From: Giardia intestinalis
Taxonomy: Eukaryota
NCBI GenBank assembly: GCA_000002435.2
Contig: CM018793.1
Strand: one strand, 5' to 3'
DNA length: 64,000 bases
Below are positions 11,147-32,100 of the stretch, in pieces (position 1 is the stretch's first letter; each line of letters starts with the position of its first letter). Below the pieces are notes generated by a model, which did no database searches, was not told the DNA's origin, and was given only the letters and a program-made list of their open reading frames with translations. A program made the position numbers and the translations under genes.

Positions 11147-11193
11147 TCTAATTTTAAACGATCAAAATTTGAAAGTTTATATGGGCTAATATT

Positions 11194-14100
11194 TCAAGCA
11201 TTTTGTGCTTTTTGAAGTTCTGCAATAATGCAATCCTTTTCTGCAAGCTCTCTTTTGAGCATGGAGAGCTCCGCTTTGAGACTGACAGCTTCTGGACTTG
11301 TCAAGTATGAATCTTTTCCATCAAGGCTAAGCTCTGCCTCTCTCGCCTTTGCATAGAGATCATTTTTCAATCCAGACAAATGTTGCAAAGATGTATTGAT
11401 GCGAGCATCTGAAATAGATGCATCTAACGCGAAGTTAATATTATTTTCATGAAGGATATTCCTCAATCTAACAAGCTCACTATTTTTCTCTATGTTAGCC
11501 TCTCTAAGCTTAGTCAGTGCATGCTCAAGTTGACCGACTGCAGTTATCACGCGGGCCAATTCATCTTCTGTATAGTGAAGATCATCGGTAAGCTTTTGTA
11601 CCTCGTCGCGTAGGGCGAGGGTTTCCTCACCGGGATCACTGTTGTAGGTCCAGTCAAAGCGCTCGTTCAGCGCGTCCTTATATTCCAGTATCTTATTATC
11701 CTTTGCTTGAATGCGCTCTTCTAATATTGCAATCTCTTCTTTGAGGCGAGAAATTTCAGAGATCTTCCGTTCGACTTCAGCATTGCGAGAATTAAGCAGA
11801 AGGACAAGATTATCAACAGACTGCGATACTGTTTCATCATGAAGCTTGAGATCTTTATGGGCAAGGCTTTGAAGCCTGTCTATCTCATGTTTCAAAATGG
11901 CTAACTCTTCAGTTAATGCCGCAGAGTCAATCTTTGAGTCTAAAGACGAAAGTATTGCACTTGACTTAATAAGCCCATTCAAAAACTCCTTCCCTGTTTC
12001 AAAAGTATGGACAACAGTATTTGTTTGTGACGCGACAAGCGTCTGCTGGAGTTGGATGATCTCCTCTTGGTGCTGGCGAATCGCTTGTCGAAGATCTGGG
12101 ATGGTATCCTGCATCTCGCGGATCTGGGCCTTGGCGTCGTTCATGGCTCCGAGGTTTTCGGTCAGGGCAGAGACCCTGTCCTCAGCGGCGGCGAGCTGGG
12201 CGCGGGCGGTCTGCAGGGCGTCCTGGGCCTCCGCCAGCTGAGCCGCGAGGGCATCTCGCTCGGCCTCCAGATTCTTGTGCTCGGCCTCCAGAGCTGCGGC
12301 CTCGTCGAGGGCCTTATCGAGGGCCGCACGGGCCTCATCGCGCTCGGCCTCTGCAGCACGCACGTCGGCCTCAAGGCGGCGGATGGCCTCGTCGCCGCCC
12401 TGCGCCTGCTGTGCCTTGGCGCGGAACTTCTCGGCGGCATCGGCGAGGGCCTCTGTGCCTGCTGCTGCGTGTGCCTCGAGCTCGGCGATTTTGGCGCGGG
12501 CGTCGGCAAGCCTTTCTTCGGCGGCCTTGGCCTGAGCCTCCAGCTCTGCAGCGCGCTCTGCAAGCGCCTCTGCGTCGCGAGCACGCACGGCATCTTCGGC
12601 CGCCTGCTCGCGGAGGCGCGCCAGCTCCTCGGAGAGATCCTCGAGCTGGGCCGCCTTGAGCTGGGCGTCTTCCTGGTGGGCGGCGGCCTGCTCGCGCGCT
12701 TCACGGAGCGCCGCTGCGTTCTCGGCTGCGTCGCGGCGGAGGGCTGCAAGCTCCTGCTGAAGCTGCTGCGCGGCGTCGCCGTGGTCGGCAATCCCGTCGA
12801 TCGCCTCTGCAAGCGCCTTCTCGCGGGCCTCGAGCTTGTCTGTAAGGGCGGCGCTTTCGTCTTCGAGGCGACGGATCCTGTTCTGGGCGTCCTCGAGCGC
12901 GCCGTCTGTAGCGCTTCTTTTGAGGTCCATGGCAGTAAGCTGGCGCTCGCGGTCCCGGACCTCCTCTGCTCGCGCTTCGGCCTTGCGGCCCAGCGATTGA
13001 AGGGCACTCTCCAGCTCGTCGACGCGGTTGCGCAGCCGTGCCGTCTTGGCGGCGCTTTCTTCTGCTTGCTCTGCCCTTGCGGCTGCCTCGTCCTCCAGGG
13101 CTTGAATCCGCGTTCTGGCGGCCTCGACACTGGCCGTTGTTCGGGAAAGTTCGTCACTCAGCTGGCCGATCTCCTTGTCCTTTGCATCAAGGGTGGCATG
13201 GAGGTCATCTCGCTCGGCCTCGAGTTGAACGATGCGCTCTGCAGCGCCTTCATTGTCTTGCGCACGTAGTTGTTGAAGCTCGCGCTCGCGGTTGTCTGCC
13301 TCCTCGCGAAGTCTTTCTGCCTCATTCCGGAGCATGTCAAGCGCCACTGTCTTCTCATCGAGCTCGCCCTGCTTTTGCTCCAGCTCCTTCCTAAGAGTTC
13401 CAAGCTCCATTTCCTGCATCCCTGCATCTATCTGCTTGCTCTTGAGCTCTGACAAATAATCTTCGAGCATTTGGGTGCGCTCCTTCGAATCGGAAGCCTG
13501 CTGCTCGAGATGAGAAAGTGCATCAATCTTGTCGTGTGCTTCCTGGAGCTCGCGACGAAGCTCAGCGATTTCGTCTGCCTGACGCTGTGCTAAAGTGTCT
13601 TTATCTCTGGCTGCTTCTTCTAAATAGTGGACCTGGGCCTTGGCGTCGTTCATGGCTCCGAGGTTTTCGGTCAGGGCAGAGACCCTGTCCTCAGCGGCGG
13701 CGAGCTGGGCGCGGGCGGTCTGCAGGGCGTCCTGGGCCTCCGCCAGCTGAGCCGCGAGGGCATCTCGCTCGGCCTCCAGATTCTTGTGCTCGGCCTCCAG
13801 AGCTGCGGCCTCGTCGAGGGCCTTATCGAGGGCCGCACGGGCCTCATCGCGCTCGGCCTCTGCAGCACGCACGTCGGCCTCAAGGCGGCGGATGGCCTCG
13901 TCGCCGCCCTGCGCCTGCTGTGCCTTGGCGCGGAACTTCTCGGCGGCATCGGCGAGGGCCTCTGTGCCTGCTGCTGCGTGTGCCTCGAGCTCGACGATTT
14001 TGGCGCGGGCGTCGGCAAGCCTTTCTTCGGCGGCCTTGGCCTGAGCCTCCAGCTCTGCAGCGCGCTCTGCAAGCGCCTCTGCGTCGCGAGCACGCACGGC

Positions 14101-17100
14101 ATCTTCGGCCGCCTGCTCGCGGAGGCGCGCCAGCTCCTCGGAGAGATCCTCGAGCTGGGCCGCCTTGAGCTGGGCGTCTTCCTGGTGGGCGGCGGCCTGC
14201 TCGCGCGCTTCACGGAGCGCCGCTGCGTTCTCGGCTGCGTCGCGGCGGAGGGCTGCAAGCTCCTGCTGAAGCTGCTGCGCGGCGTCGCCGTGGTCGGCAA
14301 TCCCGTCGATCGCCTCTGCAAGCGCCTTCTCGCGGGCCTCGAGCTTGTCTGTAAGGGCGGCGCTTTCGTCTTCGAGGCGACGGATCCTGTTCTGGGCGTC
14401 CTCGAGCGCGCCGTCTGTAGCGCTTCTTTTGAGGTCCATGGCAGTAAGCTGGCGCTCGCGGTCCCGGACCTCCTCTGCTCGCGCTTCGGCCTTGCGGCCC
14501 AGCGATTGAAGGGCACTCTCCAGCTCGTCGACGCGGTTGCGCAGCCGTGCCGTCTTGGCGGCGCTTTCTTCTGCTTGCTCTGCCCTTGCGGCTGCCTCGT
14601 CCTCCAGGGCTTGAATCCGCGTTCTGGCGGCCTCGACACTGGCCGTTGTTCGGGAAAGTTCGTCACTCAGCTGGCCGATCTCCTTGTCCTTTGCATCAAG
14701 GGTGGCATGGAGGTCATCTCGCTCGGCCTCGAGTTGAACGATGCGCTCTGCAGCGCCTTCATTGTCTTGCGCACGTAGTTGTTGAAGCTCGCGCTCGCGG
14801 TTGTCTGCCTCCTCGCGAAGTCTTTCTGCCTCATTCCGGAGCATGTCAAGCGCCACTGTCTTCTCATCGAGCTCGCCCTGCTTTTGCTCCAGCTCCTTCC
14901 TAAGAGTTCCAAGCTCCATTTCCTGCATCCCTGCATCTATCTGCTTGCTCTTGAGCTCTGACAAATAATCTTCGAGCATTTGGGTGCGCTCCTTCGAATC
15001 GGAAGCCTGCTGCTCGAGATGAGAAAGTGCATCAATCTTGTCGTGTGCTTCCTGGAGCTCGCGACGAAGCTCAGCGATTTCGTCTGCCTGACGCTGTGCT
15101 AAAGTGTCTTTATCTCTGGCTGCTTCTTCTAAATAGTGGACCTGGGCCTTGGCGTCGTTCATGGCTCCGAGGTTTTCGGTCAGGGCAGAGACCCTGTCCT
15201 CAGCGGCGGCGAGCTGGGCGCGGGCGGTCTGCAGGGCGTCCTGGGCCTCCGCCAGCTGAGCCGCGAGGGCATCTCGCTCGGCCTCCAGATTCTTGTGCTC
15301 GGCCTCCAGAGCTGCGGCCTCGTCGAGGGCCTTATCGAGGGCCGCACGGGCCTCATCGCGCTCGGCCTCTGCAGCACGCACGTCGGCCTCAAGGCGGCGG
15401 ATGGCCTCGTCGCCGCCCTGCGCCTGCTGTGCCTTGGCGCGGAACTTCTCGGCGGCATCGGCGAGGGCCTCTGTGCCTGCTGCTGCGTGTGCCTCGAGCT
15501 CGGCGATTTTGGCGCGGGCGTCGGCAAGCCTTTCTTCGGCGGCCTTGGCCTGAGCCTCCAGCTCTGCAGCGCGCTCTGCAAGCGCCTCTGCGTCGCGAGC
15601 ACGCACGGCATCTTCGGCCGCCTGCTCGCGGAGGCGCGCCAGCTCCTCGGAGAGATCCTCGAGCTGGGCCGCCTTGAGCTGGGCGTCTTCCTGGTGGGCG
15701 GCGGCCTGCTCGCGCGCTTCACGGAGCGCCGCTGCGTTCTCGGCTGCGTCGCGGCGGAGGGCTGCAAGCTCCTGCTGAAGCTGCTGCGCGGCGTCGCCGT
15801 GGTCGGCAATCCCGTCGATCGCCTCTGCAAGCGCCTTCTCGCGGGCCTCGAGCTTGTCTGTAAGGGCGGCGCTTTCGTCTTCGAGGCGACGGATCCTGTT
15901 CTGGGCGTCCTCGAGCGCGCCGTCTGTAGCGCTTCTTTTGAGGTCCATGGCAGTAAGCTGGCGCTCGCGGTCCCGGACCTCCTCTGCTCGCGCTTCGGCC
16001 TTGCGGCCCAGCGATTGAAGGGCACTCTCCAGCTCGTCGACGCGGTTGCGCAGCCGTGCCGTCTTGGCGGCGCTTTCTTCTGCTTGCTCTGCCCTTGCGG
16101 CTGCCTCGTCCTCCAGGGCTTGAATCCGCGTTCTGGCGGCCTCGACACTGGCCGTTGTTCGGGAAAGTTCGTCACTCAGCTGGCCGATCTCCTTGTCCTT
16201 TGCATCAAGGGTGGCATGGAGGTCATCTCGCTCGGCCTCGAGTTGAACGATGCGCTCTGCAGCGCCTTCATTGTCTTGCGCACGTAGTTGTTGAAGCTCG
16301 CGCTCGCGGTTGTCTGCCTCCTCGCGAAGTCTTTCTGCCTCATTCCGGAGCATGTCAAGCGCCACTGTCTTCTCATCGAGCTCGCCCTGCTTTTGCTCCA
16401 GCTCCTTCCTAAGAGTTCCAAGCTCCATTTCCTGCATCCCTGCATCTATCTGCTTGCTCTTGAGCTCTGACAAATAATCTTCGAGCATTTGGGTGCGCTC
16501 CTTCGAATCGGAAGCCTGCTGCTCGAGATGAGAAAGTGCATCAATCTTGTCGTGTGCTTCCTGGAGCTCGCGACGAAGCTCAGCGATTTCGTCTGCCTGA
16601 CGCTGTGCTAAAGTGTCTTTATCTCTGGCTGCTTCTTCTAAATAGTGGACCTGGGCCTTGGCGTCGTTCATGGCTCCGAGGTTTTCGGTCAGGGCAGAGA
16701 CCCTGTCCTCAGCGGCGGCGAGCTGGGCGCGGGCGGTCTGCAGGGCGTCCTGGGCCTCCGCCAGCTGAGCCGCGAGGGCATCTCGCTCGGCCTCCAGATT
16801 CTTGTGCTCGGCCTCCAGAGCTGCGGCCTCGTCGAGGGCCTTATCGAGGGCCGCACGGGCCTCATCGCGCTCGGCCTCTGCAGCACGCACGTCGGCCTCA
16901 AGGCGGCGGATGGCCTCGTCGCCGCCCTGCGCCTGCTGTGCCTTGGCGCGGAACTTCTCGGCGGCATCGGCGAGGGCCTCTGTGCCTGCTGCTGCGTGTG
17001 CCTCGAGCTCGGCGATTTTGGCGCGGGCGTCGGCAAGCCTTTCTTCGGCGGCCTTGGCCTGAGCCTCCAGCTCTGCAGCGCGCTCTGCAAGCGCCTCTGC

Positions 17101-20100
17101 GTCGCGAGCACGCACGGCATCTTCGGCCGCCTGCTCGCGGAGGCGCGCCAGCTCCTCGGAGAGATCCTCGAGCTGGGCCGCCTTGAGCTGGGCGTCTTCC
17201 TGGTGGGCGGCGGCCTGCTCGCGCGCTTCACGGAGCGCCGCTGCGTTCTCGGCTGCGTCGCGGCGGAGGGCTGCAAGCTCCTGCTGAAGCTGCTGCGCGG
17301 CGTCGCCGTGGTCGGCAATCCCGTCGATCGCCTCTGCAAGCGCCTTCTCGCGGGCCTCGAGCTTGTCTGTAAGGGCGGCGCTTTCGTCTTCGAGGCGACG
17401 GATCCTGTTCTGGGCGTCCTCGAGCGCGCCGTCTGTAGCGCTTCTTTTGAGGTCCATGGCAGTAAGCTGGCGCTCGCGGTCCCGGACCTCCTCTGCTCGC
17501 GCTTCGGCCTTGCGGCCCAGCGATTGAAGGGCACTCTCCAGCTCGTCGACGCGGTTGCGCAGCCGTGCCGTCTTGGCGGCGCTTTCTTCTGCTTGCTCTG
17601 CCCTTGCGGCTGCCTCGTCCTCCAGGGCTTGAATCCGCGTTCTGGCGGCCTCGACACTGGCCGTTGTTCGGGAAAGTTCGTCACTCAGCTGGCCGATCTC
17701 CTTGTCCTTTGCATCAAGGGTGGCATGGAGGTCATCTCGCTCGGCCTCGAGTTGAACGATGCGCTCTGCAGCGCCTTCATTGTCTTGCGCACGTAGTTGT
17801 TGAAGCTCGCGCTCGCGGTTGTCTGCCTCCTCGCGAAGTCTTTCTGCCTCATTCCGGAGCATGTCAAGCGCCACTGTCTTCTCATCGAGCTCGCCCTGCT
17901 TTTGCTCCAGCTCCTTCCTAAGAGTTCCAAGCTCCATTTCCTGCATCCCTGCATCTATCTGCTTGCTCTTGAGCTCTGACAAATAATCTTCGAGCATTTG
18001 GGTGCGCTCCTTCGAATCGGAAGCCTGCTGCTCGAGATGAGAAAGTGCATCAATCTTGTCGTGTGCTTCCTGGAGCTCGCGACGAAGCTCAGCGATTTCG
18101 TCTGCCTGACGCTGTGCTAAAGTGTCTTTATCTCTGGCTGCTTCTTCTAAATAGTGGACCTGGGCCTTGGCGTCGTTCATGGCTCCGAGGTTTTCGGTCA
18201 GGGCAGAGACCCTGTCCTCAGCGGCGGCGAGCTGGGCGCGGGCGGTCTGCAGGGCGTCCTGGGCCTCCGCCAGCTGAGCCGCGAGGGCATCTCGCTCGGC
18301 CTCCAGATTCTTGTGCTCGGCCTCCAGAGCTGCGGCCTCGTCGAGGGCCTTATCGAGGGCCGCACGGGCCTCATCGCGCTCGGCCTCTGCAGCACGCACG
18401 TCGGCCTCAAGGCGGCGGATGGCCTCGTCGCCGCCCTGCGCCTGCTGTGCCTTGGCGCGGAACTTCTCGGCGGCATCGGCGAGGGCCTCTGTGCCTGCTG
18501 CTGCGTGTGCCTCGAGCTCGGCGATTTTGGCGCGGGCGTCGGCAAGCCTTTCTTCGGCGGCCTTGGCCTGAGCCTCCAGCTCTGCAGCGCGCTCTGCAAG
18601 CGCCTCTGCGTCGCGAGCACGCACGGCATCTTCGGCCGCCTGCTCGCGGAGGCGCGCCAGCTCCTCGGAGAGATCCTCGAGCTGGGCCGCCTTGAGCTGG
18701 GCGTCTTCCTGGTGGGCGGCGGCCTGCTCGCGCGCTTCACGGAGCGCCGCTGCGTTCTCGGCTGCGTCGCGGCGGAGGGCTGCAAGCTCCTGCTGAAGCT
18801 GCTGCGCGGCGTCGCCGTGGTCGGCAATCCCGTCGATCGCCTCTGCAAGCGCCTTCTCGCGGGCCTCGAGCTTGTCTGTAAGGGCGGCGCTTTCGTCTTC
18901 GAGGCGACGGATCCTGTTCTGGGCGTCCTCGAGCGCGCCGTCTGTAGCGCTTCTTTTGAGGTCCATGGCAGTAAGCTGGCGCTCGCGGTCCCGGACCTCC
19001 TCTGCTCGCGCTTCGGCCTTGCGGCCCAGCGATTGAAGGGCACTCTCCAGCTCGTCGACGCGGTTGCGCAGCCGTGCCGTCTTGGCGGCGCTTTCTTCTG
19101 CTTGCTCTGCCCTTGCGGCTGCCTCGTCCTCCAGGGCTTGAATCCGCGTTCTGGCGGCCTCGACACTGGCCGTTGTTCGGGAAAGTTCGTCACTCAGCTG
19201 GCCGATCTCCTTGTCCTTTGCATCAAGGGTGGCATGGAGGTCATCTCGCTCGGCCTCGAGTTGAACGATGCGCTCTGCAGCGCCTTCATTGTCTTGCGCA
19301 CGTAGTTGTTGAAGCTCGCGCTCGCGGTTGTCTGCCTCCTCGCGAAGTCTTTCTGCCTCATTCCGGAGCATGTCAAGCGCCACTGTCTTCTCATCGAGCT
19401 CGCCCTGCTTTTGCTCCAGCTCCTTCCTAAGAGCGCTTGCTTCAATAGTATAAATTTGAGTATCTGACATCTGTGATTTAAGCTCACTAACAAAATCTTC
19501 CAACCGTTGAGTACGTTCTTTGGAATCGTTCGCTCTTTCCTCTGATGCCTTATTTAATTTTTTCAGGTCTGCTACCTCTGTCAAAAGTTCCTTTTTGTCG
19601 CGCTCGAGTTGAGCCACGCGATCAACAAGATCTTGAGATTCCTCTGCCTCTAGTTTCATAGTGGCAATTTCATCCATTTGTGCATTTAAGTTATCCAATA
19701 GCTCCGCCATCTGAATTTCATTGGCTTGTGCCTCATGGGTTCGTCTGGCAAATTCCATCTGGGACGCGACAAGCGTCTGCTGGAGTTGGATGATCTCCTC
19801 TTGGTGCTGGCGAATCGCTTGTCGAAGATCTGGGATGGTATCCTGCATCTCGCGGATCTGGGCCTTGGCGTCGTTCATGGCTCCGAGGTTTTCGGTCAGG
19901 GCAGAGACCCTGTCCTCAGCGGCGGCGAGCTGGGCGCGGGCGGTCTGCAGGGCGTCCTGGGCCTCCGCCAGCTGAGCCGCGAGGGCATCTCGCTCGGCCT
20001 CCAGATTCTTGTGCTCGGCCTCCAGAGCTGCGGCCTCGTCGAGGGCCTTATCGAGGGCCGCACGGGCCTCATCGCGCTCGGCCTCTGCAGCACGCACGTC

Positions 20101-23100
20101 GGCCTCAAGGCGGCGGATGGCCTCGTCGCCGCCCTGCGCCTGCTGTGCCTTGGCGCGGAACTTCTCGGCGGCATCGGCGAGGGCCTCTGTGCCTGCTGCT
20201 GCGTGTGCCTCGAGCTCGGCGATTTTGGCGCGGGCGTCGGCAAGCCTTTCTTCGGCGGCCTTGGCCTGAGCCTCCAGCTCTGCAGCGCGCTCTGCAAGCG
20301 CCTCTGCGTCGCGAGCACGCACGGCATCTTCGGCCGCCTGCTCGCGGAGGCGCGCCAGCTCCTCGGAGAGATCCTCGAGCTGGGCCGCCTTGAGCTGGGC
20401 GTCTTCCTGGTGGGCGGCGGCCTGCTCGCGCGCTTCACGGAGCGCCGCTGCGTTCTCGGCTGCGTCGCGGCGGAGGGCTGCAAGCTCCTGCTGAAGCTGC
20501 TGCGCGGCGTCGCCGTGGTCGGCAATCCCGTCGATCGCCTCTGCAAGCGCCTTCTCGCGGGCCTCGAGCTTGTCTGTAAGGGCGGCGCTTTCGTCTTCGA
20601 GGCGACGGATCCTGTTCTGGGCGTCCTCGAGCGCGCCGTCTGTAGCGCTTCTTTTGAGGTCCATGGCAGTAAGCTGGCGCTCGCGGTCCCGGACCTCCTC
20701 TGCTCGCGCTTCGGCCTTGCGGCCCAGCGATTGAAGGGCACTCTCCAGCTCGTCGACGCGGTTGCGCAGCCGTGCCGTCTTGGCGGCGCTTTCTTCTGCT
20801 TGCTCTGCCCTTGCGGCTGCCTCGTCCTCCAGGGCTTGAATCCGCGTTCTGGCGGCCTCGACACTGGCCGTTGTTCGGGAAAGTTCGTCACTCAGCTGGC
20901 CGATCTCCTTGTCCTTTGCATCAAGGGTGGCATGGAGGTCATCTCGCTCGGCCTCGAGTTGAACGATGCGCTCTGCAGCGCCTTCATTGTCTTGCGCACG
21001 TAGTTGTTGAAGCTCGCGCTCGCGGTTGTCTGCCTCCTCGCGAAGTCTTTCTGCCTCATTCCGGAGCATGTCAAGCGCCACTGTCTTCTCATCGAGCTCG
21101 CCCTGCTTTTGCTCCAGCTCCTTCCTAAGAGCGCTTGCTTCAATAGTATAAATTTGAGTATCTGACATCTGTGATTTAAGCTCACTAACAAAATCTTCCA
21201 ACCGTTGAGTACGTTCTTTGGAATCGTTCGCTCTTTCCTCTGATGCCTTATTTAATTTTTTCAGGTCTGCTACCTCTGTCAAAAGTTCCTTTTTGTCGCG
21301 CTCGAGTTGAGCCACGCGATCAACAAGATCTTGAGATTCCTCTGCCTCTAGTTTCATAGTGGCAATTTCATCCATTTGTGCATTTAAGTTATCCAATAGC
21401 TCCGCCATCTGAATTTCATTGGCTTGTGCCTCATGGGTTCGTCTGGCAAATTCCATCTGGGACGCGACAAGCGTCTGCTGGAGTTGGATGATCTCCTCTT
21501 GGTGCTGGCGAATCGCTTGTCGAAGATCTGGGATGGTATCCTGCATCTCGCGGATCTGGGCCTTGGCGTCGTTCATGGCTCCGAGGTTTTCGGTCAGGGC
21601 AGAGACCCTGTCCTCAGCGGCGGCGAGCTGGGCGCGGGCGGTCTGCAGGGCGTCCTGGGCCTCCGCCAGCTGAGCCGCGAGGGCATCTCGCTCGGCCTCC
21701 AGATTCTTGTGCTCGGCCTCCAGAGCTGCGGCCTCGTCGAGGGCCTTATCGAGGGCCGCACGGGCCTCATCGCGCTCGGCCTCTGCAGCACGCACGTCGG
21801 CCTCAAGGCGGCGGATGGCCTCGTCGCCGCCCTGCGCCTGCTGTGCCTTGGCGCGGAACTTCTCGGCGGCATCGGCGAGGGCCTCTGTGCCTGCTGCTGC
21901 GTGTGCCTCGAGCTCGGCGATTTTGGCGCGGGCGTCGGCAAGCCTTTCTTCGGCGGCCTTGGCCTGAGCCTCCAGCTCTGCAGCGCGCTCTGCAAGCGCC
22001 TCTGCGTCGCGAGCACGCACGGCATCTTCGGCCGCCTGCTCGCGGAGGCGCGCCAGCTCCTCGGAGAGATCCTCGAGCTGGGCCGCCTTGAGCTGGGCGT
22101 CTTCCTGGTGGGCGGCGGCCTGCTCGCGCGCTTCACGGAGCGCCGCTGCGTTCTCGGCTGCGTCGCGGCGGAGGGCTGCAAGCTCCTGCTGAAGCTGCTG
22201 CGCGGCGTCGCCGTGGTCGGCAATCCCGTCGATCGCCTCTGCAAGCGCCTTCTCGCGGGCCTCGAGCTTGTCTGTAAGGGCGGCGCTTTCGTCTTCGAGG
22301 CGACGGATCCTGTTCTGGGCGTCCTCGAGCGCGCCGTCTGTAGCGCTTCTTTTGAGGTCCATGGCAGTAAGCTGGCGCTCGCGGTCCCGGACCTCCTCTG
22401 CTCGCGCTTCGGCCTTGCGGCCCAGCGATTGAAGGGCACTCTCCAGCTCGTCGACGCGGTTGCGCAGCCGTGCCGTCTTGGCGGCGCTTTCTTCTGCTTG
22501 CTCTGCCCTTGCGGCTGCCTCGTCCTCCAGGGCTTGAATCCGCGTTCTGGCGGCCTCGACACTGGCCGTTGTTCGGGAAAGTTCGTCACTCAGCTGGCCG
22601 ATCTCCTTGTCCTTTGCATCAAGGGTGGCATGGAGGTCATCTCGCTCGGCCTCGAGTTGAACGATGCGCTCTGCAGCGCCTTCATTGTCTTGCGCACGTA
22701 GTTGTTGAAGCTCGCGCTCGCGGTTGTCTGCCTCCTCGCGAAGTCTTTCTGCCTCATTCCGGAGCATGTCAAGCGCCACTGTCTTCTCATCGAGCTCGCC
22801 CTGCTTTTGCTCCAGCTCCTTCCTAAGAGCGCTTGCTTCAATAGTATAAATTTGAGTATCTGACATCTGTGATTTAAGCTCACTAACAAAATCTTCCAAC
22901 CGTTGAGTACGTTCTTTGGAATCGTTCGCTCTTTCCTCTGATGCCTTATTTAATTTTTTCAGGTCTGCTACCTCTGTCAAAAGTTCCTTTTTGTCGCGCT
23001 CGAGTTGAGCCACGCGATCAACAAGATCTTGAGATTCCTCTGCCTCTAGTTTCATAGTGGCAATTTCATCCATTTGTGCATTTAAGTTATCCAATAGCTC

Positions 23101-26100
23101 CGCCATCTGAATTTCATTGGCTTGTGCCTCATGGGTTCGTCTGGCAAATTCCATCTGGGACGCGACAAGCGTCTGCTGGAGTTGGATGATCTCCTCTTGG
23201 TGCTGGCGAATCGCTTGTCGAAGATCTGGGATGGTATCCTGCATCTCGCGGATCTGGGCCTTGGCGTCGTTCATGGCTCCGAGGTTTTCGGTCAGGGCAG
23301 AGACCCTGTCCTCAGCGGCGGCGAGCTGGGCGCGGGCGGTCTGCAGGGCGTCCTGGGCCTCCGCCAGCTGAGCCGCGAGGGCATCTCGCTCGGCCTCCAG
23401 ATTCTTGTGCTCGGCCTCCAGAGCTGCGGCCTCGTCGAGGGCCTTATCGAGGGCCGCACGGGCCTCATCGCGCTCGGCCTCTGCAGCACGCACGTCGGCC
23501 TCAAGGCGGCGGATGGCCTCGTCGCCGCCCTGCGCCTGCTGTGCCTTGGCGCGGAACTTCTCGGCGGCATCGGCGAGGGCCTCTGTGCCTGCTGCTGCGT
23601 GTGCCTCGAGCTCGGCGATTTTGGCGCGGGCGTCGGCAAGCCTTTCTTCGGCGGCCTTGGCCTGAGCCTCCAGCTCTGCAGCGCGCTCTGCAAGCGCCTC
23701 TGCGTCGCGAGCACGCACGGCATCTTCGGCCGCCTGCTCGCGGAGGCGCGCCAGCTCCTCGGAGAGATCCTCGAGCTGGGCCGCCTTGAGCTGGGCGTCT
23801 TCCTGGTGGGCGGCGGCCTGCTCGCGCGCTTCACGGAGCGCCGCTGCGTTCTCGGCTGCGTCGCGGCGGAGGGCTGCAAGCTCCTGCTGAAGCTGCTGCG
23901 CGGCGTCGCCGTGGTCGGCAATCCCGTCGATCGCCTCTGCAAGCGCCTTCTCGCGGGCCTCGAGCTTGTCTGTAAGGGCGGCGCTTTCGTCTTCGAGGCG
24001 ACGGATCCTGTTCTGGGCGTCCTCGAGCGCGCCGTCTGTAGCGCTTCTTTTGAGGTCCATGGCAGTAAGCTGGCGCTCGCGGTCCCGGACCTCCTCTGCT
24101 CGCGCTTCGGCCTTGCGGCCCAGCGATTGAAGGGCACTCTCCAGCTCGTCGACGCGGTTGCGCAGCCGTGCCGTCTTGGCGGCGCTTTCTTCTGCTTGCT
24201 CTGCCCTTGCGGCTGCCTCGTCCTCCAGGGCTTGAATCCGCGTTCTGGCGGCCTCGACACTGGCCGTTGTTCGGGAAAGTTCGTCACTCAGCTGGCCGAT
24301 CTCCTTGTCCTTTGCATCAAGGGTGGCATGGAGGTCATCTCGCTCGGCCTCGAGTTGAACGATGCGCTCTGCAGCGCCTTCATTGTCTTGCGCACGTAGT
24401 TGTTGAAGCTCGCGCTCGCGGTTGTCTGCCTCCTCGCGAAGTCTTTCTGCCTCATTCCGGAGCATGTCAAGCGCCACTGTCTTCTCATCGAGCTCGCCCT
24501 GCTTTTGCTCCAGCTCCTTCCTAAGAGCGCTTGCTTCAATAGTATAAATTTGAGTATCTGACATCTGTGATTTAAGCTCACTAACAAAATCTTCCAACCG
24601 TTGAGTACGTTCTTTGGAATCGTTCGCTCTTTCCTCTGATGCCTTATTTAATTTTTTCAGGTCTGCTACCTCTGTCAAAAGTTCCTTTTTGTCGCGCTCG
24701 AGTTGAGCCACGCGATCAACAAGATCTTGAGATTCCTCTGCCTCTAGTTTCATAGTGGCAATTTCATCCATTTGTGCATTTAAGTTATCCAATAGCTCCG
24801 CCATCTGAATTTCATTGGCTTGTGCCTCATGGGTTCGTCTGGCAAATTCCATCTGGGACGCGACAAGCGTCTGCTGGAGTTGGATGATCTCCTCTTGGTG
24901 CTGGCGAATCGCTTGTCGAAGATCTGGGATGGTATCCTGCATCTCGCGGATCTGGGCCTTGGCGTCGTTCATGGCTCCGAGGTTTTCGGTCAGGGCAGAG
25001 ACCCTGTCCTCAGCGGCGGCGAGCTGGGCGCGGGCGGTCTGCAGGGCGTCCTGGGCCTCCGCCAGCTGAGCCGCGAGGGCATCTCGCTCGGCCTCCAGAT
25101 TCTTGTGCTCGGCCTCCAGAGCTGCGGCCTCGTCGAGGGCCTTATCGAGGGCCGCACGGGCCTCATCGCGCTCGGCCTCTGCAGCACGCACGTCGGCCTC
25201 AAGGCGGCGGATGGCCTCGTCGCCGCCCTGCGCCTGCTGTGCCTTGGCGCGGAACTTCTCGGCGGCATCGGCGAGGGCCTCTGTGCCTGCTGCTGCGTGT
25301 GCCTCGAGCTCGGCGATTTTGGCGCGGGCGTCGGCAAGCCTTTCTTCGGCGGCCTTGGCCTGAGCCTCCAGCTCTGCAGCGCGCTCTGCAAGCGCCTCTG
25401 CGTCGCGAGCACGCACGGCATCTTCGGCCGCCTGCTCGCGGAGGCGCGCCAGCTCCTCGGAGAGATCCTCGAGCTGGGCCGCCTTGAGCTGGGCGTCTTC
25501 CTGGTGGGCGGCGGCCTGCTCGCGCGCTTCACGGAGCGCCGCTGCGTTCTCGGCTGCGTCGCGGCGGAGGGCTGCAAGCTCCTGCTGAAGCTGCTGCGCG
25601 GCGTCGCCGTGGTCGGCAATCCCGTCGATCGCCTCTGCAAGCGCCTTCTCGCGGGCCTCGAGCTTGTCTGTAAGGGCGGCGCTTTCGTCTTCGAGGCGAC
25701 GGATCCTGTTCTGGGCGTCCTCGAGCGCGCCGTCTGTAGCGCTTCTTTTGAGGTCCATGGCAGTAAGCTGGCGCTCGCGGTCCCGGACCTCCTCTGCTCG
25801 CGCTTCGGCCTTGCGGCCCAGCGATTGAAGGGCACTCTCCAGCTCGTCGACGCGGTTGCGCAGCCGTGCCGTCTTGGCGGCGCTTTCTTCTGCTTGCTCT
25901 GCCCTTGCGGCTGCCTCGTCCTCCAGGGCTTGAATCCGCGTTCTGGCGGCCTCGACACTGGCCGTTGTTCGGGAAAGTTCGTCACTCAGCTGGCCGATCT
26001 CCTTGTCCTTTGCATCAAGGGTGGCATGGAGGTCATCTCGCTCGGCCTCGAGTTGAACGATGCGCTCTGCAGCGCCTTCATTGTCTTGCGCACGTAGTTG

Positions 26101-29100
26101 TTGAAGCTCGCGCTCGCGGTTGTCTGCCTCCTCGCGAAGTCTTTCTGCCTCATTCCGGAGCATGTCAAGCGCCACTGTCTTCTCATCGAGCTCGCCCTGC
26201 TTTTGCTCCAGCTCCTTCCTAAGAGTTCCAAGCTCCATTTCCTGCATCCCTGCATCTATCTGCTTGCTCTTGAGCTCTGACAAATAATCTTCGAGCATTT
26301 GGGTGCGCTCCTTCGAATCGGAAGCCTGCTGCTCGAGATGAGAAAGTGCATCAATCTTGTCGTGTGCTTCCTGGAGCTCGCGACGAAGCTCAGCGATTTC
26401 GTCTGCCTGACGCTGTGCTAAAGTGTCTTTATCTCTGGCTGCTTCTTCTAAATAGTGGACCTGGGCCTTGGCGTCGTTCATGGCTCCGAGGTTTTCGGTC
26501 AGGGCAGAGACCCTGTCCTCAGCGGCGGCGAGCTGGGCGCGGGCGGTCTGCAGGGCGTCCTGGGCCTCCGCCAGCTGAGCCGCGAGGGCATCTCGCTCGG
26601 CCTCCAGATTCTTGTGCTCGGCCTCCAGAGCTGCGGCCTCGTCGAGGGCCTTATCGAGGGCCGCACGGGCCTCATCGCGCTCGGCCTCTGCAGCACGCAC
26701 GTCGGCCTCAAGGCGGCGGATGGCCTCGTCGCCGCCCTGCGCCTGCTGTGCCTTGGCGCGGAACTTCTCGGCGGCATCGGCGAGGGCCTCTGTGCCTGCT
26801 GCTGCGTGTGCCTCGAGCTCGGCGATTTTGGCGCGGGCGTCGGCAAGCCTTTCTTCGGCGGCCTTGGCCTGAGCCTCCAGCTCTGCAGCGCGCTCTGCAA
26901 GCGCCTCTGCGTCGCGAGCACGCACGGCATCTTCGGCCGCCTGCTCGCGGAGGCGCGCCAGCTCCTCGGAGAGATCCTCGAGCTGGGCCGCCTTGAGCTG
27001 GGCGTCTTCCTGGTGGGCGGCGGCCTGCTCGCGCGCTTCACGGAGCGCCGCTGCGTTCTCGGCTGCGTCGCGGCGGAGGGCTGCAAGCTCCTGCTGAAGC
27101 TGCTGCGCGGCGTCGCCGTGGTCGGCAATCCCGTCGATCGCCTCTGCAAGCGCCTTCTCGCGGGCCTCGAGCTTGTCTGTAAGGGCGGCGCTTTCGTCTT
27201 CGAGGCGACGGATCCTGTTCTGGGCGTCCTCGAGCGCGCCGTCTGTAGCGCTTCTTTTGAGGTCCATGGCAGTAAGCTGGCGCTCGCGGTCCCGGACCTC
27301 CTCTGCTCGCGCTTCGGCCTTGCGGCCCAGCGATTGAAGGGCACTCTCCAGCTCGTCGACGCGGTTGCGCAGCCGTGCCGTCTTGGCGGCGCTTTCTTCT
27401 GCTTGCTCTGCCCTTGCGGCTGCCTCGTCCTCCAGGGCTTGAATCCGCGTTCTGGCGGCCTCGACACTGGCCGTTGTTCGGGAAAGTTCGTCACTCAGCT
27501 GGCCGATCTCCTTGTCCTTTGCATCAAGGGTGGCATGGAGGTCATCTCGCTCGGCCTCGAGTTGAACGATGCGCTCTGCAGCGCCTTCATTGTCTTGCGC
27601 ACGTAGTTGTTGAAGCTCGCGCTCGCGGTTGTCTGCCTCCTCGCGAAGTCTTTCTGCCTCATTCCGGAGCATGTCAAGCGCCACTGTCTTCTCATCGAGC
27701 TCGCCCTGCTTTTGCTCCAGCTCCTTCCTAAGAGCGCTTGCTTCAATAGTATAAATTTGAGTATCTGACATCTGTGATTTAAGCTCACTAACAAAATCTT
27801 CCAACCGTTGAGTACGTTCTTTGGAATCGTTCGCTCTTTCCTCTGATGCCTTATTTAATTTTTTCAGGTCTGCTACCTCTGTCAAAAGTTCCTTTTTGTC
27901 GCGCTCGAGTTGAGCCACGCGATCAACAAGATCTTGAGATTCCTCTGCCTCTAGTTTCATAGTGGCAATTTCATCCATTTGTGCATTTAAGTTATCCAAT
28001 AGCTCCGCCATCTGAATTTCATTGGCTTGTGCCTCATGGGTTCGTCTGGCAAATTCCATCTGGGACGCGACAAGCGTCTGCTGGAGTTGGATGATCTCCT
28101 CTTGGTGCTGGCGAATCGCTTGTCGAAGATCTGGGATGGTATCCTGCATCTCGCGGATCTGGGCCTTGGCGTCGTTCATGGCTCCGAGGTTTTCGGTCAG
28201 GGCAGAGACCCTGTCCTCAGCGGCGGCGAGCTGGGCGCGGGCGGTCTGCAGGGCGTCCTGGGCCTCCGCCAGCTGAGCCGCGAGGGCATCTCGCTCGGCC
28301 TCCAGATTCTTGTGCTCGGCCTCCAGAGCTGCGGCCTCGTCGAGGGCCTTATCGAGGGCCGCACGGGCCTCATCGCGCTCGGCCTCTGCAGCACGCACGT
28401 CGGCCTCAAGGCGGCGGATGGCCTCGTCGCCGCCCTGCGCCTGCTGTGCCTTGGCGCGGAACTTCTCGGCGGCATCGGCGAGGGCCTCTGTGCCTGCTGC
28501 TGCGTGTGCCTCGAGCTCGGCGATTTTGGCGCGGGCGTCGGCAAGCCTTTCTTCGGCGGCCTTGGCCTGAGCCTCCAGCTCTGCAGCGCGCTCTGCAAGC
28601 GCCTCTGCGTCGCGAGCACGCACGGCATCTTCGGCCGCCTGCTCGCGGAGGCGCGCCAGCTCCTCGGAGAGATCCTCGAGCTGGGCCGCCTTGAGCTGGG
28701 CGTCTTCCTGGTGGGCGGCGGCCTGCTCGCGCGCTTCACGGAGCGCCGCTGCGTTCTCGGCTGCGTCGCGGCGGAGGGCTGCAAGCTCCTGCTGAAGCTG
28801 CTGCGCGGCGTCGCCGTGGTCGGCAATCCCGTCGATCGCCTCTGCAAGCGCCTTCTCGCGGGCCTCGAGCTTGTCTGTAAGGGCGGCGCTTTCGTCTTCG
28901 AGGCGACGGATCCTGTTCTGGGCGTCCTCGAGCGCGCCGTCTGTAGCGCTTCTTTTGAGGTCCATGGCAGTAAGCTGGCGCTCGCGGTCCCGGACCTCCT
29001 CTGCTCGCGCTTCGGCCTTGCGGCCCAGCGATTGAAGGGCACTCTCCAGCTCGTCGACGCGGTTGCGCAGCCGTGCCGTCTTGGCGGCGCTTTCTTCTGC

Positions 29101-32100
29101 TTGCTCTGCCCTTGCGGCTGCCTCGTCCTCCAGGGCTTGAATCCGCGTTCTGGCGGCCTCGACACTGGCCGTTGTTCGGGAAAGTTCGTCACTCAGCTGG
29201 CCGATCTCCTTGTCCTTTGCATCAAGGGTGGCATGGAGGTCATCTCGCTCGGCCTCGAGTTGAACGATGCGCTCTGCAGCGCCTTCATTGTCTTGCGCAC
29301 GTAGTTGTTGAAGCTCGCGCTCGCGGTTGTCTGCCTCCTCGCGAAGTCTTTCTGCCTCATTCCGGAGCATGTCAAGCGCCACTGTCTTCTCATCGAGCTC
29401 GCCCTGCTTTTGCTCCAGCTCCTTCCTAAGAGCGCTTGCTTCAATAGTATAAATTTGAGTATCTGACATCTGTGATTTAAGCTCACTAACAAAATCTTCC
29501 AACCGTTGAGTACGTTCTTTGGAATCGTTCGCTCTTTCCTCTGATGCCTTATTTAATTTTTTCAGGTCTGCTACCTCTGTCAAAAGTTCCTTTTTGTCGC
29601 GCTCGAGTTGAGCCACGCGATCAACAAGATCTTGAGATTCCTCTGCCTCTAGTTTCATAGTGGCAATTTCATCCATTTGTGCATTTAAGTTATCCAATAG
29701 CTCCGCCATCTGAATTTCATTGGCTTGTGCCTCATGGGTTCGTCTGGCAAATTCCATCTGGGACGCGACAAGCGTCTGCTGGAGTTGGATGATCTCCTCT
29801 TGGTGCTGGCGAATCGCTTGTCGAAGATCTGGGATGGTATCCTGCATCTCGCGGATCTGGGCCTTGGCGTCGTTCATGGCTCCGAGGTTTTCGGTCAGGG
29901 CAGAGACCCTGTCCTCAGCGGCGGCGAGCTGGGCGCGGGCGGTCTGCAGGGCGTCCTGGGCCTCCGCCAGCTGAGCCGCGAGGGCATCTCGCTCGGCCTC
30001 CAGATTCTTGTGCTCGGCCTCCAGAGCTGCGGCCTCGTCGAGGGCCTTATCGAGGGCCGCACGGGCCTCATCGCGCTCGGCCTCTGCAGCACGCACGTCG
30101 GCCTCAAGGCGGCGGATGGCCTCGTCGCCGCCCTGCGCCTGCTGTGCCTTGGCGCGGAACTTCTCGGCGGCATCGGCGAGGGCCTCTGTGCCTGCTGCTG
30201 CGTGTGCCTCGAGCTCGGCGATTTTGGCGCGGGCGTCGGCAAGCCTTTCTTCGGCGGCCTTGGCCTGAGCCTCCAGCTCTGCAGCGCGCTCTGCAAGCGC
30301 CTCTGCGTCGCGAGCACGCACGGCATCTTCGGCCGCCTGCTCGCGGAGGCGCGCCAGCTCCTCGGAGAGATCCTCGAGCTGGGCCGCCTTGAGCTGGGCG
30401 TCTTCCTGGTGGGCGGCGGCCTGCTCGCGCGCTTCACGGAGCGCCGCTGCGTTCTCGGCTGCGTCGCGGCGGAGGGCTGCAAGCTCCTGCTGAAGCTGCT
30501 GCGCGGCGTCGCCGTGGTCGGCAATCCCGTCGATCGCCTCTGCAAGCGCCTTCTCGCGGGCCTCGAGCTTGTCTGTAAGGGCGGCGCTTTCGTCTTCGAG
30601 GCGACGGATCCTGTTCTGGGCGTCCTCGAGCGCGCCGTCTGTAGCGCTTCTTTTGAGGTCCATGGCAGTAAGCTGGCGCTCGCGGTCCCGGACCTCCTCT
30701 GCTCGCGCTTCGGCCTTGCGGCCCAGCGATTGAAGGGCACTCTCCAGCTCGTCGACGCGGTTGCGCAGCCGTGCCGTCTTGGCGGCGCTTTCTTCTGCTT
30801 GCTCTGCCCTTGCGGCTGCCTCGTCCTCCAGGGCTTGAATCCGCGTTCTGGCGGCCTCGACACTGGCCGTTGTTCGGGAAAGTTCGTCACTCAGCTGGCC
30901 GATCTCCTTGTCCTTTGCATCAAGGGTGGCATGGAGGTCATCTCGCTCGGCCTCGAGTTGAACGATGCGCTCTGCAGCGCCTTCATTGTCTTGCGCACGT
31001 AGTTGTTGAAGCTCGCGCTCGCGGTTGTCTGCCTCCTCGCGAAGTCTTTCTGCCTCATTCCGGAGCATGTCAAGCGCCACTGTCTTCTCATCGAGCTCGC
31101 CCTGCTTTTGCTCCAGCTCCTTCCTAAGAGTTCCAAGCTCCATTTCCTGCATCCCTGCATCTATCTGCTTGCTCTTGAGCTCTGACAAATAATCTTCGAG
31201 CATTTGGGTGCGCTCCTTCGAATCGGAAGCCTGCTGCTCGAGATGAGAAAGTGCATCAATCTTGTCGTGTGCTTCCTGGAGCTCGCGACGAAGCTCAGCG
31301 ATTTCGTCTGCCTGACGCTGTGCTAAAGTGTCTTTATCTCTGGCTGCTTCTTCTAAATAGTGGACCTGGGCCTTGGCGTCGTTCATGGCTCCGAGGTTTT
31401 CGGTCAGGGCAGAGACCCTGTCCTCAGCGGCGGCGAGCTGGGCGCGGGCGGTCTGCAGGGCGTCCTGGGCCTCCGCCAGCTGAGCCGCGAGGGCATCTCG
31501 CTCGGCCTCCAGATTCTTGTGCTCGGCCTCCAGAGCTGCGGCCTCGTCGAGGGCCTTATCGAGGGCCGCACGGGCCTCATCGCGCTCGGCCTCTGCAGCA
31601 CGCACGTCGGCCTCAAGGCGGCGGATGGCCTCGTCGCCGCCCTGCGCCTGCTGTGCCTTGGCGCGGAACTTCTCGGCGGCATCGGCGAGGGCCTCTGTGC
31701 CTGCTGCTGCGTGTGCCTCGAGCTCGGCGATTTTGGCGCGGGCGTCGGCAAGCCTTTCTTCGGCGGCCTTGGCCTGAGCCTCCAGCTCTGCAGCGCGCTC
31801 TGCAAGCGCCTCTGCGTCGCGAGCACGCACGGCATCTTCGGCCGCCTGCTCGCGGAGGCGCGCCAGCTCCTCGGAGAGATCCTCGAGCTGGGCCGCCTTG
31901 AGCTGGGCGTCTTCCTGGTGGGCGGCGGCCTGCTCGCGCGCTTCACGGAGCGCCGCTGCGTTCTCGGCTGCGTCGCGGCGGAGGGCTGCAAGCTCCTGCT
32001 GAAGCTGCTGCGCGGCGTCGCCGTGGTCGGCAATCCCGTCGATCGCCTCTGCAAGCGCCTTCTCGCGGGCCTCGAGCTTGTCTGTAAGGGCGGCGCTTTC

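What the first reader, a model, noticed from the sequence alone, without database searches (positions are those of the whole stretch)
13985..14000. About 18 kb of repeats are essentially identical, with only one visible substitution near 13993.
Both strands of the cores are open in all frames and give identical translations across copies, so coding differences would show up. The only copy-specific change is plus G to A near 13993. In that one copy it reads ctcgacgat where every other copy reads ctcggcgat. This gives Ala to Val (KIVELEAH) in the real protein, in the second-to-last C-terminal full copy. Such homogeneity means either very recent amplification and strong concerted evolution, or repeat homogenisation by assembly polishing. 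Either way it flags this locus as one where copy number in the reference should not be trusted without spanning reads.
Basis: partly seen in the sequence, partly recalled or inferred. Interest (0 to 1): 0.55.

Follow-up and report, generated by a model that had tools for sequence, protein, structure and literature searches.

The report
Perfect 20-kb repeat in Giardia gene
A giant Giardia cytoskeletal gene (head-stalk protein GHSP-138) carries twelve 1.5-1.7 kb in-frame repeats that differ by one base; the mouse parasite Giardia muris has its own perfect array in the same gene, so the uniformity looks like real concerted evolution, but the copy number still needs spanning reads.

Summary
The window is Giardia intestinalis WB. 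ORF 11194..35301 (-) encodes 8035 aa: an ankyrin head plus a coiled-coil stalk. It equals GenBank "head-stalk protein GHSP-138" (2124 aa) expanded by 11 more units. The array spans 12029..32103 (20,075 nt). It holds a 738-nt partial core, 12 full units in the order S L L S L L L L S S S S (S 1509 nt, L 1698 nt) and 95 nt of L linker. Across all 12 units there is one difference, at 13994 (+ strand G>A, Ala7103Val, unit 11).

The "all frames open" claim is wrong: only 3 of 6 frames have ~1 kb stop-free stretches.

Copy number depends on the assembly: 0 full units (DH), 1 (WB 2007), contig breaks or gaps (P15, GS_B, a metagenome scaffold, a Logan contig), 12 here.

The syntenic G. muris orthologue has 5.18 copies of a 1611-nt unit with zero differences. 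That unit is only 41% identical in protein to the WB L unit. All WB copies also share 3 bases that differ from DH. Best reading: real concerted evolution by unequal exchange or gene conversion. A polishing artefact is unlikely but not excluded. The gene family and the process are known; the array itself appears undescribed. Interest is modest.

The parts
11194..35301 (-). Giant ORF of 8035 aa, about 890 kDa. It is the G. intestinalis WB head-stalk protein GHSP-138, annotated 'axoneme-associated protein GASP-180' and probably GL50803_16745.
   Evidence: ORF list and translation. The window protein collapsed to one unit is 100% identical to ACJ49153.1/XP_001709357.1, P0202. Neighbouring proteins are identical to WB proteins.
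34702..35301 (-). N-terminal ankyrin-repeat head, about aa 1-200.
   Evidence: Pfam Ank_2 E=1e-30 in three stretches. It is 72% identical to the G. muris orthologue.
32104..34701 (-). Unique N-terminal coiled-coil stalk, aa 201-1066, GC3 0.45.
   Evidence: Heptad periodicity z=15.6; composition.
12029..32103 (-). Whole near-perfect tandem array of 20,075 nt. In gene order: partial core, then S L L S L L L L S S S S, then partial L linker.
31366..32103 (-). First, partial core. It is the last 738 nt of the 1274-nt core and identical to the other 12 cores.
   Evidence: The Logan short-read contig L001 stops at 32101.
29857..31365 (-). Unit 1, S type: 235-nt linker plus 1274-nt core.
   Evidence: AF2 predicts four long helices, pLDDT 80.5.
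18160..29856 (-). Units 2-8 in the order L L S L L L L. Boundaries: 28159, 26461, 24952, 23254, 21556, 19858, 18160.
12124..18159 (-). Units 9-12, all S type. Boundaries: 16651, 15142, 13633, 12124.
13994..13994 (-). The only variant in the array. The + strand has A where the other units have G; the gene-strand codon changes GCC>GTC, giving Ala7103Val. It lies in unit 11, 1,965 nt from the array's gene-3' edge.
12029..12123 (-). Terminal 95 nt, identical to the start of the L linker (IREMQ...VASQ).
11194..12028 (-). Unique C-terminal coiled coil plus stop codon, GC3 0.38.
   Evidence: It aligns with the assemblage B fragment P0229 at 84% aa identity.

Best explanation
The array is a real feature of a real gene. 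The gene is Giardia head-stalk protein GHSP-138, made of an N-terminal ankyrin head and a very long alpha-helical coiled-coil stalk. Much of the stalk is built from in-frame modules of 503 aa (S) or 566 aa (L).

I infer that the modules are kept identical by ongoing concerted evolution. The likely mechanism is unequal sister-chromatid or homologue exchange and gene conversion between the 1.3-kb identical cores. The same process would add and remove modules and shuffle S and L units. The array would then be both homogeneous and variable in copy number. The G>A at 13994 would be a young singleton that has been neither lost nor spread.

Shown directly:
- the anatomy of the array
- its identity with GHSP-138
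- the assembly-dependent copy number
- a perfect, species-specific array in the syntenic G. muris gene
- lineage-specific bases shared by all WB copies.

Inferred:
- the recombinational mechanism
- that the reported 12 units is the true number, or one allele of it
- the function, a long tether or spacer at basal bodies and axonemes whose length changes with module number. Each module would add up to about 75-84 nm if the coiled coil is extended, and less if the four helices of a unit fold back on each other.
For: 1. Twelve units totalling 19.2 kb differ at one base.
2. The G. muris orthologue TNJ27669.1 sits in conserved gene order: Ephrin_rec_like, NGP1, kinase, giant gene, a 2807-aa gene. 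It has 5.18 copies of a 1611-nt unit with 0 differences over 8,346 nt. That unit is only 40.6% identical in protein to the WB L unit. This matches the unique coiled-coil parts, which are 33.5% identical. Copies are identical within each species and diverged between species.
3. WB and DH (A2) differ at 3 synonymous sites in the 738-nt core. All 13 WB cores carry the WB base at those sites. The unique N-terminal part differs at 33 of 3198 nt. The array's per-site diversity is about 1/88 of the per-lineage A1/A2 divergence.
4. The assemblage B core is 85% identical in nucleotides to WB. The B, E and A2 assemblies and a metagenome scaffold all break or gap exactly at the array. This indicates multi-copy arrays in those lineages as well.
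5. The S and L linkers share an old, diverged homologous block: 55% nt identity, with 11 of 18 conserved residues using different codons. They abut cores that are 100% identical. This mosaic is expected from homogenisation, not from a single recent copy-paste.
6. The S/L order makes all 4-unit words unique. Reads of 5.5-8.5 kb can therefore be placed, and the published read N50 is 12.7 kb with 10% of reads above 20 kb.
7. The stalk nature is supported by heptad periodicity of z about 14-15 and by an AF2 model with four long helices, pLDDT 80.5.
Against: - No raw reads could be examined.
- Both perfect arrays come from the same pipeline, PacBio RS II with HGAP and Quiver. Its read-correction step can average near-identical repeats.
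- The WB array of 20.1 kb sits at the size the authors call the limit of what their reads resolve.
- Multi-copy status in A2, B and E is inferred from contig breaks, not seen directly.
- The array boundaries differ between WB and G. muris (and direct reading). Independent amplification of the homologous segment in each lineage therefore remains possible.
- The link from this gene to locus tag GL50803_16745, and so to the basal-body and mitosome co-IP reports, is an inference from annotation names and neighbouring locus numbers.
Confidence: 0.7

Rival explanations
1. Assembly or polishing artefact. The true array contains many copy-specific variants. These were averaged away by HGAP read correction, Quiver consensus or multi-mapped reads, so the displayed identity is not biological.
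For: The pipeline was HGAP3, then Quiver, then PBJelly, then an Illumina pile-up fix. The array length is close to the stated resolvable limit. The G. muris assembly used the same pipeline.
Against: - The S/L barcode allows unique placement of reads of 5.5 kb or more, and the read N50 is 12.7 kb.
- The 8.3-kb G. muris array is easily spanned by such reads and is still perfect.
- One singleton did survive the pipeline.
- The Sanger-era WB protein has two cores identical to those here.
- The collapsed DH 454 consensus gives a clean ORF only 3 synonymous sites away from WB.
- By best-hit mapping logic (my inference), the Illumina step cannot erase a variant already present in the draft.
Confidence: 0.1
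2. A one-off, very recent amplification in the WB lineage, possibly during decades of axenic culture, from an ancestor with one or two units. There is no ongoing homogenisation, and the copies are identical only because they are young.
For: Diversity is extremely low, with 1 singleton in 20 kb. The unit order contains block-like patterns such as SLL SLL and SSSS. G. muris array boundaries differ from those in WB.
Against: - Independent assemblies of A2, B and E isolates and a wild metagenome strain all break at the array.
- G. muris carries an array at the same locus.
- The S and L linkers are anciently diverged while their cores are identical.
- The DH collapsed consensus carries internal-unit bases at its 5' edge, as expected if internal copies outnumber the edge copy.
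Confidence: 0.12
3. The homogeneity is real but the reference copy number or unit order is wrong. Alternatively it represents only one of several length alleles among the four genome copies or within the culture.
For: Copy number has been different in every assembly so far. Only reads longer than about 21 kb span the whole array, and the authors add their own caveat. Giardia is tetraploid, and intra-isolate structural variation has been reported.
Against: Tiling with the S/L barcode is feasible given the published read lengths. The authors report no misassemblies in split-read checks and good agreement with optical maps.
Confidence: 0.3

Closest known systems
Giardia head-stalk protein family (GASP-180, GHSP-115, GHSP-138; Elmendorf et al. 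2005, as cited)
   Same: It has an N-terminal ankyrin head followed by a long coiled-coil stalk. The window protein collapsed to one unit is 100% identical to the GenBank GHSP-138 record. It is 30-43% identical to 1620-aa GASP-180-type proteins.
   Different: The public GHSP-138/XP_001709357 record has 2124 aa with one full unit. This version has 8035 aa and 12 units, about 890 kDa rather than the roughly 138 kDa its name suggests (my reading of the name; no paper on it was found). No paper I could search describes the array.
Giardia muris 'axoneme-associated protein' TNJ27669.1 (4580 aa)
   Same: It is the syntenic orthologue. It has the same head-stalk plan and an L-type linker that is 50% identical. 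It also carries a perfectly homogeneous intragenic array.
   Different: It has a single unit type of 1611 nt in 5.18 copies, with no S/L dimorphism. Its array boundaries differ. Its array shows no GC3 excess over the flanks, 0.65 versus 0.63.
Concertedly evolving large-unit intragenic arrays, such as human LPA kringle IV-2 repeats, spider silk genes and trypanosome MARP repeats (named from my own knowledge, not tested here)
   Same: These have kilobase-scale or many near-identical in-frame units. Copy number is hard to assemble and is often polymorphic. Unequal exchange or gene conversion homogenises the units.
   Different: The protein class here is a cytoskeletal coiled-coil stalk. The array has two interleaved unit types sharing one identical core. 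The organism is an essentially asexual tetraploid protist.
GC-biased gene conversion in homogenised multicopy sequences (general concept, from my own knowledge)
   Same: The repeat core is a compositional island in assemblages A and B. Its GC3 is 0.66-0.79 against 0.38-0.51 in the linkers and unique parts. It is enriched in Gly, Ala, Arg and Pro and depleted in Phe, Tyr, Met, Ile, Asn and Lys.
   Different: The equally homogenised linkers are not GC-rich, and the G. muris array shows no GC3 excess. The link is therefore unproven.

Membership tests
Giardia head-stalk (ankyrin + coiled-coil) protein family | N-terminal ankyrin repeats | tested here: met
   Pfam Ank_2 E=9.8e-31 in three stretches within aa 11-190.
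Giardia head-stalk (ankyrin + coiled-coil) protein family | Long C-terminal alpha-helical coiled-coil stalk | tested here: met
   3.5-residue hydrophobic periodicity of z=14-16 in the units and the unique N-terminal stalk. AF2 models the S unit as four long helices, pLDDT 80.5. The core contains no proline.
Giardia head-stalk (ankyrin + coiled-coil) protein family | Sequence relationship to named family members | tested here: met
   The collapsed window protein equals P0202, 'head-stalk protein GHSP-138' / 'Axoneme-associated protein GASP-180'. It is 30-43% identical to other Giardia axoneme-associated or coiled-coil proteins.
Giardia head-stalk (ankyrin + coiled-coil) protein family | Association with axonemes or basal bodies | not testable with these tools
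   Only second-hand reports exist. GL50803_16745 is listed among basal-body proteins and was detected in a mitosome co-IP. The mapping of that locus tag to this gene is inferred.
Concertedly evolving tandem array | Paralogous copies within a genome are more alike than orthologous copies between lineages | tested here: met
   WB has 1 difference in 19.2 kb and G. muris has 0 in 8.3 kb. WB versus G. muris units are 40.6% identical in protein. WB versus assemblage B cores are 85% identical in nucleotides.
Concertedly evolving tandem array | Array present at the orthologous locus in more than one lineage | tested here: met
   Shown directly for G. muris through conserved gene order. Indirect for A2, B, E and a metagenome strain, where contigs end or gap at the array edges.
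Concertedly evolving tandem array | Lineage-specific substitutions shared by all copies | tested here: met
   Three synonymous core sites differ between WB and the DH consensus. All 13 WB cores share the WB base. The DH copy number itself is unknown.
Concertedly evolving tandem array | Copy-number polymorphism between individuals or alleles | not testable with these tools
   All other G. duodenalis assemblies available here are collapsed or broken at the array.
Assembly or polishing artefact (homogenised or mis-counted repeat) | Reads too short to be placed uniquely inside the array | tested here: not met
   All 4-unit S/L words are unique. Placement needs 4.8-5.5 kb and spanning the LLLL run needs 8.5 kb. 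The published read N50 is 12.7 kb, with 10% of reads above 20 kb.
Assembly or polishing artefact (homogenised or mis-counted repeat) | Raw reads contain copy-specific variants, or imply a length, absent from the consensus | not testable with these tools
   No access to SRP191500 reads.
GC-biased gene conversion island | GC3 of the homogenised sequence exceeds that of flanking unique sequence in the same gene | tested here: inconclusive
   Met for the core in WB and assemblage B: 0.66-0.79 versus 0.38-0.51. Not met for the equally homogenised S and L linkers, nor for the G. muris array, 0.65 versus 0.63.

The most novel reading that the evidence does not exclude
The array is a genus-wide, continuously homogenised 'length module' of a basal-body or axoneme tether. 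Unequal exchange would change the stalk in steps of up to about 75-84 nm, with 5 modules in G. muris and at least 12 in WB. Isolates, and perhaps the four genome copies within one cell, would then differ in the size of a protein up to about a micrometre long. In G. duodenalis the same recombination would have driven the core to GC3 of 0.7-0.8 and an Ala/Arg-rich composition. That would be a rare visible footprint of biased gene conversion in a largely asexual tetraploid.
Probability: 0.25. Interest if true: 0.55.

Novelty: new member of a known kind. Interest (0 to 1): 0.36.

Why it matters
Practical consequences:
- This locus is a trap. Any short-read or older assembly of Giardia under-reports this gene by up to 6,400 aa.
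- Expression, proteomic and variant calls on it are distorted by multi-mapping.
- Its public names do not reflect an 890-kDa product, and the "138" in GHSP-138 presumably refers to a much smaller predicted mass.

Biological interest:
- It gives a clean example of concerted evolution across two species, inside a single gene of a parasite whose recombination biology is debated.
- It offers a simple marker (unit number, S/L order, fixed core differences) for studying mitotic recombination, allele homogenisation and strain typing.
- If module number sets the length of a cytoskeletal tether, it would link repeat dynamics to cell architecture.

Tried and rejected
- Tandem Repeats Finder reported nothing for the array because the unit exceeds its 500-nt period limit. 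Offset self-comparison was used instead.
- Two word-indexed homology searches returned only the assemblage B fragment P0229. One used a whole unit and one used the two linkers. Coiled-coil words saturated the candidate list, and repeat-bearing proteins are hidden inside clusters whose representative lacks the repeat. The exhaustive HMMER search found the G. muris orthologue.
- An exact-pattern scan of JGI metagenome contigs around the SNV found nothing. The SNV could therefore not be checked in independent data.
- Literature searches for GHSP-138 and 0016745 and text look-ups in the Giardia long-read and structural-variation papers and a basal-body review gave no description of this array.
- I looked for decayed repeat copies in the unique flanks. 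Collinear similarity is only z of about 5 against shuffles, which destroy the heptad pattern. I treat this as suggestive only.
- The idea that the Illumina pile-up correction erased per-copy variants was considered and rejected on mapping logic. Reads go to their best match, so a variant already in the draft attracts only variant reads. A variant absent from the draft appears at about 1/13 and stays below the 50% update rule (my inference).
- The initial impression of a non-duodenalis Giardia species was wrong. It came from the 30-43% identity of the best named hits, which are paralogues. Exact neighbour matches place the window in WB.
Full report
**1. What is in the sequence**

The flagged site lies inside a single ORF on the minus strand, 11194..35301, of 8035 codons. 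Self-comparison at fixed offsets and explicit unit extraction define a tandem array from 12029 to 32103, 20,075 nt in all.

In gene order the array consists of:
- a partial core, the last 738 nt of a 1274-nt core
- twelve full units
- the first 95 nt of an L linker.

There are two unit types. S units are 1509 nt (503 aa) and L units are 1698 nt (566 aa). Both share the identical 1274-nt core. They differ in the linker, which is 235 nt in S and 424 nt in L. The order is S L L S L L L L S S S S.

All six S units are identical and all six L units are identical, apart from one base. Window 13994 is A where the other units have G on the + strand. The codon changes GCC>GTC, giving Ala7103Val (ARAKIVELEAH). 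The change is in unit 11, 1,965 nt from the array's gene-3' edge.

The statement that the cores are open in all frames on both strands is not correct. Besides the coding frame, one sense frame is stop-free for about 1.0 kb and one antisense frame for about 1.1 kb. The other three frames have 7-16 stops per S unit. The long shadow ORFs are a by-product of the GC-rich Ala/Glu/Leu/Arg composition.

**2. What the gene is**

Neighbouring ORFs encode a NEK kinase, nucleolar GTPase NGP1, an Ephrin_rec_like cysteine-rich protein, ankyrin proteins and an adaptin. Six neighbours are residue-for-residue identical to proteins of Giardia intestinalis WB clone C6. These include KAE8305060/61/64-67/70 and GL50803_16731, 16732 and 11105.

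The giant protein has an ankyrin head (Pfam Ank_2, E=1e-30). The rest shows strong heptad periodicity, z about 14-16. AF2 models an S unit as four long helices with pLDDT 80.5.

If eleven units are deleted in silico, the window protein is exactly the GenBank protein "head-stalk protein GHSP-138". This is ACJ49153.1 = XP_001709357.1, 2124 aa, annotated "Axoneme-associated protein GASP-180". It therefore belongs to the known Giardia head-stalk family (Elmendorf et al. 2005, cited).

It is probably locus GL50803_16745. I infer this because only two WB genes carry the GASP-180 name and the neighbouring locus numbers are 16731 and 16732. That locus has been listed among basal-body proteins and detected in a mitosome-associated co-IP.

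The predicted mass is 890 kDa. A fully extended coiled coil would be about 1.16 um long, with 75-84 nm per unit. The AF2 helix breaks mean the true length could be much shorter if the helices fold back on each other.

**3. Copy number depends on the assembly**

| Source | State of the gene |
|---|---|
| WB, 2007 Sanger assembly | 1 full unit, 2124 aa |
| DH (A2), 454 assembly | 0 full units, 1621 aa |
| P15 (E) | gene split over two contig ends |
| GS_B (B) | contig ends inside the last core |
| A2-like human-gut metagenome scaffold (L004) | 100 N in place of the array; flanks stop 55 and 53 nt inside it |
| Logan short-read contig of WB (L001) | stops 3 nt inside the array |
| This window | 12 full units, 8035 aa |

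This window corresponds to the 2020 PacBio reference. That assembly used RS II reads with N50 of 12.7 kb, 10% of them above 20 kb. It was built with HGAP3, Quiver and PBJelly plus an Illumina pile-up fix. Its authors say about 20 kb may be the largest duplication resolvable with their reads.

The array is not featureless, however. Every word of four consecutive S/L letters is unique. A read covering 4.8-5.5 kb can therefore be placed, and 8.5 kb spans the longest uniform run. The structure can be tiled with the published read lengths, although fewer reads would span it end to end.

**4. Is the uniformity real?**

The exhaustive profile search found one strong relative: Giardia muris TNJ27669.1, 4580 aa. 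It lies in conserved gene order: Ephrin_rec_like, NGP1, kinase, giant gene, large downstream gene.

Its DNA contains 5.18 copies of a 1611-nt (537 aa) unit with zero differences over 8,346 nt. The unit is of the L type, with a linker 50% identical to the WB L linker. Overall it is only 40.6% identical in protein to the WB L unit. The unique coiled-coil regions are similarly diverged at 33.5%, and the ankyrin head is 72% identical. Units are identical within each species and strongly diverged between species. This is the defining pattern of concerted evolution.

Further evidence within G. duodenalis:
- The assemblage B core is 85% identical in nucleotides to WB, and a third of conserved codons differ.
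- WB and DH differ at three synonymous core sites, and all 13 WB cores carry the same base at those sites. The unique N-terminal region differs at 33 of 3198 nt.
- The array's per-site diversity is about 1/88 of the per-lineage A1/A2 divergence. If copies had diverged like the A1/A2 cores, about 41 differences would be expected (P of one or none is about 6e-17).
- The S and L linkers contain a clearly homologous but old block. It has 55% nt identity, and 11 of 18 conserved residues use different codons. This is more diverged than the A-versus-B core (Fisher P=0.035), though not significantly more than the A-versus-B C-terminal unique region (P=0.14). The block lies directly next to 1274 nt of 100% identity. 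A single recent copy-paste does not produce that mosaic.
- The DH collapsed consensus carries internal-unit bases at five positions just outside the WB 5' edge, whereas the A2-like metagenome strain keeps the WB-like edge. This fits internal copies outvoting the edge copy in a collapsed assembly, or a local conversion tract.

**5. Mechanism (inferred)**

Unequal exchange and gene conversion between the 1.3-kb identical cores would homogenise the units. All units are multiples of three nucleotides, so the reading frame is preserved. The same events would duplicate or delete units and permute S and L. This fits the block-like order, such as SLL SLL and SSSS.

The 13994 variant would be a young singleton near an array edge. 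It could also be present on only some of the four genome copies, or be a consensus error that Illumina correction could not remove. Reads with the consensus base map better to the other copies, so they would not correct it (my inference).

**6. Rivals**

A polishing artefact cannot be excluded without reads, and both perfect arrays come from the same pipeline. It is nevertheless disfavoured for these reasons:
- the S/L barcode permits unique read placement
- the G. muris array is easily spanned by the reads and is still perfect
- one singleton survived the pipeline
- the Sanger and 454 consensus sequences agree with this one.

A one-off recent amplification in WB is disfavoured by the breaks in other isolates and by the G. 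muris array. A wrong or allele-specific copy number remains quite possible, at about 0.3.

**7. An unexplained extra**

The core is a compositional island in both A and B. Its GC3 is 0.66-0.79 and GC1 is 0.78-0.88. The amino acids Gly, Ala, Arg and Pro make up 0.33-0.44 of the core, and Phe, Tyr, Met, Ile, Asn and Lys only 0.08-0.11. The linkers and unique parts of the same gene have GC3 of 0.38-0.51.

GC-biased gene conversion is an attractive explanation. But the equally homogenised linkers are not GC-rich, and the G. muris array shows no excess over its flanks. I leave this open.

**8. Novelty and verdict**

The gene family, the reference sequence and the process of concerted evolution are all known. 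I found no paper that describes this array, its S/L architecture, its size in the new reference or the parallel array in G. muris.

I class it as a new member of a known kind. It has practical importance for anyone using this locus and modest biological interest.

Noticed in passing
window 12124-32103 (the 13 cores), compared with 11194-12028 and 32104-35301: The repeat core is a sharp compositional island. GC is 67% and GC3 is 0.66-0.78, with 26-33% Ala and Arg exceeding Lys. The genome averages about 46-48% GC, and the linkers and unique parts of the same gene have GC3 of 0.38-0.51. The assemblage B core shares the high GC3 (0.79), but the G. muris array does not exceed its flanks.
   Followed up: partly
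L005 8956-17301 (G. muris CM016927.1, gene at 6001-19743): The syntenic G. muris orthologue (TNJ27669.1, 4580 aa) contains 5.18 copies of a 1611-nt unit with no differences at all. It has one unit type only, and its array boundaries differ from those in WB.
   Followed up: yes
window 36708, 35332, 32691: Logan contig SRR13990249_112 is identical to the window over 13.3 kb except for three homopolymers that are one base shorter (G4>G3, A7>A6, A6>A5). Two of these would frameshift the NEK kinase and the giant gene. They are either errors in that data set or real variants. Two other Logan fragments (P0203, P0205) share a different frameshift near aa 620.
   Followed up: partly
L003 6185-6197 (DH gene nt 3185-3197), equivalent to window 32104-32116: In the DH (A2) assembly, five bases just outside the WB array edge match the internal-unit sequence instead of the WB edge. 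An A2-like metagenome scaffold (L004) keeps the WB-like edge. This is either a collapsed-consensus artefact or a conversion tract that shifts the boundary.
   Followed up: partly
window 13627-14778 (+), 13671-14666 (-) and their equivalents in every unit: Shadow ORFs of 331-425 aa recur in each core, on the opposite strand and in an alternative sense frame. They are explained by the stop-poor GC-rich composition and are not evidence of overlapping genes.
   Followed up: yes
window 12124-31365: The unit order S L L S L L L L S S S S contains a repeated SLL block and a terminal SSSS run. This suggests multi-unit duplications. All 4-unit words are unique, which makes the order a usable barcode for read placement or strain typing.
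   Followed up: partly
window 41689-41724 and 62224-62264: There is a (TGGTTG)x6 microsatellite inside the 886-aa ankyrin-repeat protein gene, and a 14-nt motif repeated 2.9 times in the intergenic space upstream of the 767-aa ORF.
   Followed up: no
window 36770-36795: The mechanically listed NEK ORF (GTG start, 484 aa) overlaps the end of the NGP1 gene by 26 nt. The annotated WB protein is 466 aa, so the overlap comes from the ORF-start rule rather than from the genes.
   Followed up: partly
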